Assembly (NCBI RefSeq): GCF_032062105.1
Contig: NW_026918875.1
Coordinates: forward strand, 372,001 to 436,000
Length of the DNA: 64,000 nucleotides
DNA from: Saccostrea cucullata
Lineage: Eukaryota
Direction of reading: 5' to 3'
Under the pieces are notes generated by a model. That model was not told where the DNA came from and did not search any database. It saw only the letters and a list, made by a program, of their open reading frames with translations. A program made the translations under genes and the position numbers. Of the stretch, positions 50,947-64,000 are shown in pieces (the first letter of the stretch is position 1; each line of letters starts with the position of its first letter).

Positions 50947-53900
50947 CTGAAATGACATTTATATTATTGAGTTAAAATTCCAAGTCTGGACTTCAATTCA
51001 TTGCTGAAGGTATTTAGCCCTTGTTGACACTATTTTGCCAAAACTGAACAGGACTTATTGACCAGTTAATTAATATTCTTGTAAAAAATAGAAGTTTAAG
51101 AAATTAAAAATTGCTCTTTTAACTTAAAGAAAAAATATATCACATAAAGGTGAATATATTCAGTATACATGTATTTAGTTAATTTACAACATAGGGTACC
51201 TGTGTAAACAAAATAAGTTGTTTACCCTACTTACACTGGGAAAACAAATGGAAACCTTAAATTCAATACTTAATCTTGGTCTAACATAAAGAATTCTTCA
51301 TCATTACAATGACTGAACTCACCCTGAAAACCTGGATTATGATATGCAACTTCTGGCAATGTGGTTACATTTCTAAAGGATCCACCCGCAGAATATGACC
51401 TCATGCTGTAATTGTCATAGGGACTTGCAGGAAATGGTGGACCGTACAATGCGGCTTTATCCATCGGCGGACCTCCTGTGTATTCTGTGTGATGACTGTA
51501 CTTCTCTGGTCTTCTGAAAGTAAATCACACAATATTGTCTAACATGGAATAACAGAACTCAAAAGCAATCATATTTTTTTAGTTGATTTTATGCCCCCCC
51601 CCCCCTCCCCCATGCAACCTTTGATTCTTAGGCTTAGAATAATTTGATTAACATGAAGTGAAATAACAAAGGGTAAAACAACTTACTTGCGTGCCCTGGC
51701 AACACAGCAGACAATGAGAATGGCGAGAATCATAAGAGCAGCTCCAGCCGTCACAGAAGCTATAATTACTGTCTCGTTCTGTTGCTGTGATTCTTTACTG
51801 AAATCTACCAATGAAAATGCAGGACAATTTTATTTCCAGTAGTATGAAAAAATAGGCTCTATTTTCATGACTTTGAATTATATTGGCATTATTTTGGCAA
51901 CAGTTTAGTTTTTACAGTAATAAAAATCAGACTTATATATAAATCAAAATTCTTTGAGTCCCACAATTAACATATGATTCAAAAAGTATATTATTTACAA
52001 AGCGAATTATTTGTCAAGATAATGAACTCTTTCAGCTCTGCTTTGATTCAGAAGCTGAGCCAATCCATTACGTACCTTTACGAATCTGACATCTGTCTCC
52101 TAGATAGGCAGTGCCACACTGACAGAGTAGTTTTGGTGACTTGACACATGTTCCATGCACACAATAGCCTAAATCACACTTATCTAGAAGAAAATTTAAA
52201 AAAAAGAATGTACATTATTCCTAAAGGAAAATTATCAAAATGTTAATGGGGGGGGGGGGGGGAGGGAATTTTTTCCTTCACATACATGTATTACCCCAAT
52301 ATATCAAGGCCCCATGTAATAAATTTAGTATGATGAAACTTAAACAATATCTTGTAGAATAAAAATCAATAAACTGAAATGATTTCATAAAATTCTCAAT
52401 TAACTCAAATAATGCAGGACAATTTTTGTGGAATAGTATGTCAAAAAAACTACTATTATTTGATGCCTCTCATTAATCATACAGAATTGACTCTTTGAAT
52501 GATCTGTTGTTTTCTTATCAAAAAAAGGAGAGGAACAATTTAATAAAGTTAACTCTAAAATTTCAATCCTCAATACAGGGAGATAACTTACGAGTACAGT
52601 TGGTGCCGTCTCCCTGGAAGTCCTGGTTACACTGACAGGTGAAGCTGTTAGAGGTGGGGGTACAGGAGGCAGCCAGGTGACAGTTGTTGTTTCCAGCATC
52701 ACAGAACTCTGTGGACCACAAAATTAAAATTGTTATCAACATATGTATCAGCTCAAGTAAAACCAACAGCCAGGTGACAGTTGTTGTTTCCAGCGTCACA
52801 GAACTCTGTGGACCAAAAAATTAAAATTGTTATCAATATATGTATCAGCTCAAGTAAAACCAACAATCAGGTGAAAAATATACCTCTTCAATATATGAAG
52901 TATATGCTGAAATTTCAAACAAGCTATAAATATGATGAAAGTTGTACCGGTATTCAACCTTAGTGCACATTATGTATTTTCAAAGCTATGTAAAAATTTC
53001 TAATTTTTGAAAACCAGATAAAAATTCCCATGCAAAGACACAGGATAATTCTTAAAAATATGAAGAACAACAAAGTAAAACATATTTAGGTTTATAAAAA
53101 GACACTTCCAAATAAAATGCACGACTGAGTTCAGTGGATTAGCATTTTTTTTAATAATAAAAACTACTGACTAAATTTTACATCTGGATAGACCTACTTT
53201 TACAGGCAGATATAGATGTGCTGCCCAAGCTGACGGTGAAATAGCCCTCCGGTCCACAGGACTTGCAGCTACTTGACCGTGGTTGATCCTGGTATGTTCC
53301 GTTACCACAGAGTTCACACCTCTGAAGCTGGTCATTAAAGAATTCTCCTACTTTGCAGTTAGCTAGAACAGCAGAATACAATATACTGTAAAATCACATA
53401 TTTTCATGGGGTCAAATTTTCGAGGTTTGAGGAAAAAATCTTGGTTTGTGGGGACTTGATTTCGTGGATGGAGAATGTTTAAGTAGTAATGTATATTAAA
53501 TTTTACATTTCGTGGTGGTCATGAATTCGTGGGTCTCTCCATGCCTCGAAAACAACGAAAATTAAACCCCCACGAAAATTAATGATTTCACAGTATAAAT
53601 TTCATTGTTTTAGAGTATTTTATTAGGATATGGAACACTGTATGAGGGGGACAAAATTTTGTTGAATTGTGATCAATGTTGATTTTTTTGGGGAGGGGGG
53701 GGGGGGTACAATTTCATTGTTTTAAAATATTTCTGAAAAATTTTCGCAAAGGAGTCTGTTTCCTTGATGAATGTTATCGATAGAATTTAATACCAATGAA
53801 CATTCCACATTTAAAGGACTCATACTTAGGTTATATTTGCCTTCAAACTAAAAAATCGGAGAGAAAACAAGAGGCCCATGGGCCACACCGCTCACCTGAG

Positions 53901-64000: not shown

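What the first reader, a model, noticed from the sequence alone, without database searches (positions are those of the whole stretch)
53198..64000. Strict A/B alternation of 15 symmetric, skippable repeat exons
Seen: every complete intact repeat is one phase 1-1 exon of 159-177 nt (a multiple of 3). Type A (GxYQ...WQ/Q-xxC) and type B (GxY[K/R][D/T]...) alternate without exception once the broken exon is counted: A63859, B63391, A62787, B62429, A61948, B60763, A60303, B60014, A59528, B59089, A58600, B58043, A57276, B55309, A53198. Inference: the ectodomain grew by duplication of a two-exon unit, the structural module may be an A-B pair, and any exon subset can be skipped in frame. That makes this a potentially length-variable surface receptor.
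Basis: partly seen in the sequence, partly recalled or inferred. Interest (0 to 1): 0.7.

Follow-up and report, generated by a model that had tools for sequence, protein, structure and literature searches.

The report
Ancient alternating stalk of Uninflatable-like protein
These 15 alternating cysteine-rich exons encode the membrane-proximal part of a mollusc cell-surface protein that resembles fly Uninflatable; their number and order nearly match those of snails and clams, so they are likely an old, fixed-length stalk built by two-exon duplications rather than a length-variable receptor.

Summary
Thirteen intact phase 1-1 exons (159-177 nt), one cut by the window edge and one broken, alternate A/B (permutation p about 3e-4). 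All 14 tested are PF07699 Ephrin_rec_like repeats, followed by EGF-EGF-TM-short tail. Mollusc orthologues (3,700-4,700 aa) align collinearly with insect Uninflatable but lack its two F5/8 domains. Insect Uif already has A-B-A at this place. Haliotis and Patella have the same 15 repeats and Potamilus and Mactra have 16; window repeats best match the same position in 37 of 60 comparisons (7.8 expected). Spliced contigs from two studies carry the repeats from B04 or A05 to A15 in order (partly by length arithmetic), though contigs hide rare isoforms. Two-exon duplication is supported and is the commonest mode of repeat growth (PMC1553488). An obligate A-B module is not supported: A-only and B-only runs exist in relatives. 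Length variability is not supported. Open point: exon 3 is frame-broken in this assembly, so this allele would need skipping or cryptic splicing. The scan's notes held no earlier finding of this gene.

The parts
63859..64000 (-). Repeat exon A01 (cut by window edge); first full repeat of the array
   Evidence: best match is position 1 in 4 of 4 species
63391..63552 (-). Repeat exon B02
63206..63421 (-). 4.8 tandem copies (44/45 nt) of the end of B02 with its splice donor; the extra donors would add an in-frame stop
   Evidence: stop read from the sequence
62787..63025 (-). Broken repeat exon A03: 239 nt, out of frame; Cys2-Cys3 part replaced by AT-rich filler at about 62890-62987
   Evidence: this bin has multi-copy depth in a DNA run
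62429..62605 (-). Repeat exon B04
   Evidence: single-exon ORFs of relatives read through at the same borders
61948..62109 (-). Repeat exon A05
60763..60933 (-). Repeat exon B06
60303..60464 (-). Repeat exon A07
60014..60178 (-). Repeat exon B08
59528..59686 (-). Repeat exon A09
59089..59247 (-). Repeat exon B10
58600..58758 (-). Repeat exon A11
58043..58213 (-). Repeat exon B12
57276..57440 (-). Repeat exon A13
55309..55467 (-). Repeat exon B14
53198..53362 (-). Repeat exon A15
52592..52708 (-). EGF exon 1 (117 nt, also phase 1-1); its acceptor is duplicated in a 97-nt tandem at 52670-52874
   Evidence: Pfam EGF_3
52076..52183 (-). EGF-like exon 2 (108 nt, phase 1-1)
   Evidence: splice model reproduces P0001; EGF label from Cys pattern
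51687..51804 (-). Transmembrane exon
   Evidence: helix 708-745 in the model of orthologue P0042
51323..51513 (-). Cytoplasmic tail exon, Tyr/Pro-rich, no kinase
50921..50946 (-). Last coding exon with stop; C-terminal hexapeptide shared with several mollusc orthologues

Best explanation
The 15 exons encode PF07699 cysteine-rich repeats that lie just outside the EGF-EGF-transmembrane end of a mollusc Uninflatable-like membrane protein, and they likely form a fixed-length, disulfide-bonded stalk that would hold the adhesion head (CUB, Sushi, HYR, EGF, LamG; inferred from orthologues, outside the window) away from the cell surface. Shown: repeat family, exon phases, alternation, C-terminal splicing, and position-by-position conservation with snails and clams. 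Inferred history: the protostome ancestor had a short A-B(-A) core, kept as A-B-A in insect Uif; in the lophotrochozoan line, unequal crossing-over between introns copied the two-exon unit in frame, and the result was about 15 repeats before bivalves and gastropods split and has changed little since. Alternation is thus mainly a fossil of the duplication unit; A and B differ in a few residues (Q versus K/R after GxY) and in the length of the linker that each exon carries at its end (3 versus 4). Inferred function, by analogy only: apical adhesion, membrane shaping or Notch modulation as in Drosophila Uif. The main mRNA includes the intact repeats; exon A03 is damaged in this assembly.
For: PF07699 above the cut-off in 14 of 14 exons tested. 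The spliced 3' part (843 aa) aligns over 796-843 residues at 38-42% to eight mollusc proteins, six named and two unnamed or duplicate-genus rows. Insect proteins named uif rank directly behind the mollusc rows in a whole-length search with the Potamilus orthologue. Haliotis aligns collinearly with Periplaneta Uif from residue 27 to 3191, with gaps where Uif has F5/8 domains. The LamG-HYR tree separates two SVEP1 rows from molluscs plus Uif at 100/100. Insect Uif reads A-3-B-4-A before EGF-EGF-TM. A blind period-2 test gives p < 0.05 in 19 of 19 closest relatives chosen by score. The Cys3-Cys4 spacing of B04-B14 (15,15,15,13,15,13) recurs in Potamilus and, within 1 residue, in Mactra, Haliotis, Patella, Lottia and Lymnaea. 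Same-position best hits: 37 of 60, with 7.8 expected. One contig explains the depth of 9 of 9 clean exon bins in run X1 and 8 of 9 in run X11. The AlphaFold model of orthologue P0042 has mean pLDDT 80 but pTM 0.38, with repeated short strands, a TM helix and a disordered tail, which fits an extended chain.
Against: The N-terminal 3,000 or so residues are outside the window and no genome is held, so the Uif link is indirect. Mollusc orthologues lack both F5/8 domains and gave no Pfam lectin hit. In the LamG-HYR tree the lophotrochozoan rows are not resolved as one clade (52% of bootstrap trees), and one SVEP1-named row, matched only over its HYR part, falls inside. Repeat number does vary between lineages (3 in insects, 13-16 in most molluscs, 33-34 in Owenia), and some counts rest on gene models. 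Contigs drop rare isoforms, and only 15 of 1,414 joints were displayed. The stalk role and any Notch link are untested.
Confidence: 0.75

Rival explanations
1. Length-variable receptor: regulated in-frame skipping of exon subsets gives many isoforms.
For: All intact repeat exons are phase 1-1. B02 joined to B04 stays open. The broken A03 forces some alternative splicing in this allele. B-B and A-A junctions occur in relatives. Alternative exons are enriched for phase symmetry in human genes (PMC3632108, passages).
Against: Single contigs from two studies include consecutive exons. Four unnamed Logan/JGI orthologue ORFs (P0182, P0037, P0042, P0063) follow the conserved order with no gap. The EGF exons are phase 1-1 too, so symmetry is the ordinary build of such modules.
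Confidence: 0.08
2. The A-B pair is a structural or functional unit, and selection keeps pairs intact.
For: Alternation has lasted across gastropods, bivalves, a cephalopod and annelids. Several gains and losses come in pairs (Owenia; 13-repeat forms P0039, P0185). Linker length follows type: 369 of 378 Q-type repeats are followed by 3 residues, and 340 of 352 K/R-type by 4, in 70 proteins.
Against: B-only runs (Intoshia P0028-P0030, P0033; P0142), an A-only run of more than 50 (P0183), a terminal A-A in unionids and Mactra, and B-B-B in a paralogue group (P0191, P0040) all exist. Only 13 of 104 long PF07699 arrays alternate at 85% or more. No interface data were obtained.
Confidence: 0.17
3. 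The copy in this assembly is a damaged (null or hypomorphic) allele, or A03 is an assembly error. This concerns A03 only and is compatible with the main reading.
For: A03 is out of frame with a stop. Recent micro-duplications hit the B02 donor and the EGF1 acceptor. All 15 orthologues displayed have a repeat at this position, although three pulmonate-type rows and Littorina have lost cysteines there.
Against: The other 18 complete coding exons are intact. Near-identical spliced sequence exists (0 and 1 differences in 172 and 177 nt, run X1; P0001 100%). Skipping A03, or removing a cryptic 77-nt GT-AG intron, would keep the frame.
Confidence: 0.3
4. The gene is an SVEP1/SCUBE-type or repeat-only protein rather than Uif-like.
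For: Databases name some relatives 'SVEP1-like'. Repeat-only paralogues with a similar EGF-EGF-TM end exist in unionids (P0031, P0183).
Against: It has a TM segment. SVEP1 rows score far lower (119-124 bits versus 650-730 for orthologues). Its repeat positions are in register with the full-length Uif-like proteins (7-11 of 15 for Patella, Haliotis, Lymnaea) but not with the repeat-only P0031.
Confidence: 0.07

Closest known systems
Uninflatable (Uif) of insects; P0187 Periplaneta and P0188 Bemisia 'uif'
   Same: Single-pass membrane protein ending in PF07699 repeats, EGF, EGF, TM and a short tail. The A-B-A triplet has the same 3/4 linkers. Mollusc orthologues share LDLa, CUB, Sushi, HYR, EGF and LamG in the same order.
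   Different: 15 membrane-proximal repeats instead of 3; both F5/8 domains are missing in the mollusc orthologues; no evident tail similarity; no functional data in molluscs.
Unstudied mollusc and annelid proteins (Potamilus KAK3579233, Mactra KAL4239882, Haliotis XP_067672504, Patella KAK6171429, Lottia XP_009045309, Lymnaea CAL1527991, Owenia CAH1794302)
   Same: Same array, register and spacing code; several share the C-terminal motif.
   Different: 38-42% identity; 16 repeats in the unionids and Mactra, 33-34 in Owenia; A03 is broken here.
PF07699 Ephrin_rec_like (GCC2/GCC3) module; solved examples Chlamydomonas Mst1, thyroglobulin, Eph receptors, ELAPOR1
   Same: Six-cysteine TNFR-like module; best PDB matches by sequence and by fold are Mst1.
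   Different: Fold matches are local only (TM-score 0.14 or less); most long arrays do not alternate.
SVEP1/polydom
   Same: Shares the ephrin-like, EGF, LamG/pentraxin block (bioRxiv 2020.06.15.151027, one passage).
   Different: SVEP1 has vWA and 19 or more Sushi domains and is described as secreted; this protein has a TM segment and a long proximal array.
Multi-domain tandem duplication of repeats (Bjorklund et al. 2006, PMC1553488)
   Same: A two-domain duplication unit is reported as the commonest overall, with expansion in the middle of arrays.
   Different: Here each repeat is one exon and the unit is two exons; that paper found exon-bounded EGF and Ig families mostly duplicating one domain at a time.

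Membership tests
PF07699 Ephrin_rec_like | Score above the Pfam gathering cut-off (23.1 bits) | tested here: met
   14 of 14 exons tested, 34-50 bits; A03 was not submitted
Uninflatable | Single TM with short non-enzymatic tail | tested here: met
Uninflatable | Proximal order: ephrin-like repeats, EGF, EGF, TM, with an A-3-B-4-A core | tested here: met
   (insect A and B repeats fall with A and B)
Uninflatable | LDLa, CUB, Sushi, HYR, EGF array and LamG upstream | tested here: inconclusive
   Met in mollusc orthologues; outside the window for this gene
Uninflatable | Two F5/8 (FA58C) domains (PMC3340373) | tested here: not met
   No Pfam hit in any mollusc orthologue scanned; alignment gaps at Uif 838-980 and 1291-1450. 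Filed therefore as Uif-like, not as Uif in the strict sense
Uninflatable | N-terminal C-type lectin domain | tested here: inconclusive
   No Pfam hit in mollusc orthologues, but the alignment covers the region from residue 27/30
Uninflatable | Groups with Uif, not SVEP1, in a tree of the LamG-HYR block | tested here: inconclusive
   Two SVEP1 rows split off at 100/100; a third, partly matched, falls inside; deep forks are open; tested on orthologues only
Uninflatable | Apical localisation; Notch binding through EGF repeats | not testable with these tools
   Known for Drosophila (PMC12867482, PMC13178913, passages)
SVEP1/polydom | No TM; C-terminal Sushi array | tested here: not met
   The gene ends in EGF-EGF-TM-tail
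Eph receptor tyrosine kinases | Cytoplasmic kinase domain | tested here: not met
   Tail of about 75 aa, no Pfam hit
Dscam-like splice-diversified receptors (definition recalled) | Clusters of mutually exclusive exons | tested here: not met
   Consecutive repeat exons occur together in single contigs

The most novel reading that the evidence does not exclude
The proximal array is a molecular ruler: lineages tuned the reach of a conserved Uif adhesion/Notch-modulating head by adding A-B exon pairs (3 repeats in insects, 13-16 in molluscs, 33-34 in the tube worm Owenia), matched to the depth of their apical matrix. Phase symmetry also buffers the gene within species, so that the naturally broken A03 allele is rescued by skipping and gives a stalk one module shorter.
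Probability: 0.2. Interest if true: 0.55.

Novelty: new variant of a known kind. Interest (0 to 1): 0.27.

Why it matters
Uif is described as a conserved insect protein (PMC13178913, abstract). These data point to Uif-like proteins across molluscs, annelids and a priapulid, with a stalk five times longer in molluscs. That gives a candidate apical adhesion or Notch-modulating protein to test in molluscs. The array is also a clean, datable case of two-exon duplication followed by long stasis. It is not a diversification system, and the mechanism (phase 1-1 modules, two-unit duplication) is textbook.

Tried and rejected
No whole genome is held, so upstream exons and paralogues could not be read. 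A metagenome scan with B04 found no relative among 594 pattern matches; the alignment-based scan could not run. The run search listed no holder on record as RNA; splicing was inferred from contigs that skip introns. Estimating from bin depths whether A03 is spliced in was tried by hand and is ambiguous, because that bin is dominated by multi-copy DNA. Intron-against-intron BLAST showed no trace of the duplication among repeat introns (2 short, unrelated pairs). No full-length protein of this species was found (one search was limited to 2,000 aa). The AlphaFold output gave no PAE or coordinates, so A-B versus B-A contacts were not measured; no complex prediction was run. The ESM Atlas gave only generic EGF clusters below 0.9. 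Literature searches for ephrin-like repeat arrays and for Uif outside insects (listings only, top 5-40 rows each) showed no paper on this array; subscription journals are not covered, and the original Uif paper (Zhang and Ward 2009) was not read. The window-trained A/B HMM classification could be circular, so it was checked with label-free tests.

Full report
Observation. Thirteen are complete and intact, 159-177 nt, AG/GT-bounded, multiples of three and phase 1-1. A01 is cut by the window edge and A03 (63025-62787) is broken. All 14 exons submitted pass the Pfam cut-off for PF07699 Ephrin_rec_like. The alternation is real: identity between repeats peaks at even lags (40% and 39% versus 31% and 30%), permutation p = 3e-4, and an ML tree of the 15 repeats splits A from B with moderate support, 77/93.

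The gene. Downstream follow two EGF-type exons (also phase 1-1), a TM exon, a Tyr/Pro-rich tail exon and a short last exon. A Logan protein (P0001, 100% identical) is reproduced exactly by this splice model from EGF2 to the stop. B04 to the stop gives one open frame of 843 aa. There is no kinase. No whole genome is held, so the 5' part was inferred from relatives.

Relatives. A search of 1.84 billion representatives with B04 returned 150 listed proteins. The best against the spliced 3' part are mollusc proteins of about 3,700-4,700 aa at 38-42% identity, named by their sources as Potamilus, Mactra, Patella, Lottia, Haliotis, Littorina, Lymnaea and Physella, with more distant ones from Argonauta, Capitella, Owenia and Intoshia. 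Several end in the same C-terminal motif. They carry LDLa, CUB, Sushi, HYR, EGF and LamG domains. A whole-length search with the Potamilus protein ranked insect proteins named uif directly behind the mollusc rows, then Priapulus, with SVEP1-like proteins far lower. Haliotis aligns collinearly with Periplaneta Uif over residues 27-3191, with gaps at the two F5/8 domains. A LamG-HYR tree of 22 rows separates two SVEP1 rows from molluscs plus Uif at 100/100, but leaves deep forks open and places one partly matched SVEP1 row inside. I therefore call the gene Uif-like: probably the same lineage, lacking one listed Uif feature (FA58C; PMC3340373, passages). The organism is a mollusc by these matches, likely a bivalve; this was not determined further.

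History of the array. Insect Uif has exactly A-3-B-4-A before EGF-EGF-TM; Priapulus has A-B and a Gigantopelta paralogue A-B-A. In a tree of 85 repeats from eight proteins, the A/B label needs 2 changes (shuffled mean 28), and the insect repeats fall with their class. So the two types predate the split of insects and molluscs (inference). Haliotis and Patella have 15 full repeats like the window, Potamilus, Sinanodonta and Mactra 16 (an extra terminal A), some caenogastropod forms 13, and Owenia 33-34. Position-specific spacing is shared: the Cys3-Cys4 gap of B04-B14 is 15,15,15,13,15,13 here and in Potamilus, and within one residue in Mactra, Haliotis, Patella, Lottia and Lymnaea. Among same-type repeats of four species chosen for matching layout, window repeats hit the same position in 37 of 60 cases, against 7.8 by chance. 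The window's repeats are at most 54% identical to each other, and introns show no trace of duplication. The array is old and has been nearly static in molluscs. A01 matches position 1 in 4 of 4 species, so the window holds essentially the whole array. Duplication in units of two is reported as the commonest pattern for domain repeats overall (PMC1553488, passages).

Is the pair a module? Probably not an obligate one. Linker length follows the type of the preceding repeat (369 of 378 Q-type followed by 3; 340 of 352 K/R-type by 4; 68 other-type junctions split 40/28; 70 proteins), as expected if each exon carries its own linker. Intoshia has B-only runs, a Potamilus paralogue has more than 50 consecutive A, and P0142 has four B12-like copies. 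Some of these rest on gene models. Across 104 long PF07699 arrays only 13 alternate at 85% or more, whereas 19 of 19 closest relatives show a period-2 signal in a blind test. An AlphaFold model of orthologue P0042 (24-row alignment) has mean pLDDT 80 and pTM 0.38, with short strands, a TM helix and a disordered tail; this fits an extended chain but says nothing on pair contacts. Foldseek and sequence searches give Chlamydomonas Mst1 first, with low TM-scores.

Is it skipped? Four of 11 listed runs were laid. In X1, one 2,168-nt contig has B04 at 185-361 and B06 at 524-695, leaving exactly A05 between; B04-A15 in order would end at 2,158. Its depth (58.3) explains 9 of 9 clean exon bins (58.1-58.9). 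In X11, a different study and about 95% identical, a 2,434-nt contig starting at the tail would end at 62046 if every exon is included; the depth drops between 62039 and 62048, and 8 of 9 clean bins fit 12.4-13.0. B14 and A15 rest on arithmetic because intronic repeats swamp their bins. Limits: contigs drop rare variants, only 15 of 1,414 joints were displayed, and neither run is on record as RNA. The dominant transcript is thus full-inclusion from B04 or A05 to A15; minor skipping is untested.

The broken exon. A03 has a proper acceptor and a 5' start like that of orthologues, and an intact 3' 103 nt, but the Cys2-Cys3 part is replaced by AT-rich filler; spliced whole it is 239 nt with a stop. 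The filler holds an 8-nt motif at 62926 that I recall as a Tc1/mariner end, and 36 nt resembling the intron after A01 (84%, E 1e-4); the bin is multi-copy in a DNA run. Skipping A03 keeps the frame, as would a weak cryptic 77-nt intron (62966-62890) that gives 162 nt with four cysteines. Lymnaea, Physella, Littorina and P0046 have lost cysteines at this same position, so it is the most tolerant one. Whether this is an allele, a fixed state or an assembly error could not be settled.

Function. Drosophila Uif is a large apical single-pass adhesion protein needed for tracheal inflation and glial membrane growth, and it binds and modulates Notch through EGF repeats (PMC12867482, PMC13178913, PMC3340373; passages found by term search, no supplements). 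By analogy the mollusc protein likely works at apical surfaces, with this array as a spacer between membrane and head. That step is inference only.

Verdict. The feature is real, and the two-exon duplication reading is right. The variable-receptor reading is not supported. What is modestly new is a lophotrochozoan Uif-like lineage with a long, position-conserved stalk; my searches listed no paper on it. Class: new variant of a known kind; interest 0.27.

Noticed in passing
window 1-1410 (-) and 33258-34703 (-): Two paralogous ORFs (470 and 481 aa, same strand, 32 kb apart) that look like NocA/Elbow (ZNF703/503) zinc-finger genes; the family label is recalled, and Pfam gave only a weak C2H2 hit for the second.
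   Followed up: partly
P0142 (unnamed protein): A 376-aa membrane protein with four tandem copies of a repeat whose best match among 2,090 repeats is window exon B12, on an unrelated TM and tail (recalled as KCT2/TGN38-like; no Pfam support). It suggests that a single B exon was shuffled into another gene.
   Followed up: partly
P0183 (Potamilus) and P0031 (Sinanodonta): Repeat-only paralogues ending in EGF-EGF-TM; P0183 has 82 repeats, with neighbours up to 100% identical, so a recent A-only expansion or a gene-model artefact. These are better candidates for length polymorphism than the window gene.
   Followed up: partly
window 63206-63421 and 52670-52874: Recent tandem micro-duplications that each copy a splice site of this gene (B02 donor about five times; EGF1 acceptor twice).
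   Followed up: partly
window about 53866-55246: Very high-copy element in the B14-A15 intron with 5.5 copies of a 166-nt unit and a GACG microsatellite; depth above 10^6 in a DNA run, with loose ends at both borders.
   Followed up: no
window 44460-46749: 21-nt minisatellite in two blocks (about 59 and 30 copies) that gives spurious long ORFs on both strands.
   Followed up: no
P0028-P0030 (Intoshia linei): The orthonectid parasite has Uif-like proteins whose array expanded by single B repeats.
   Followed up: partly
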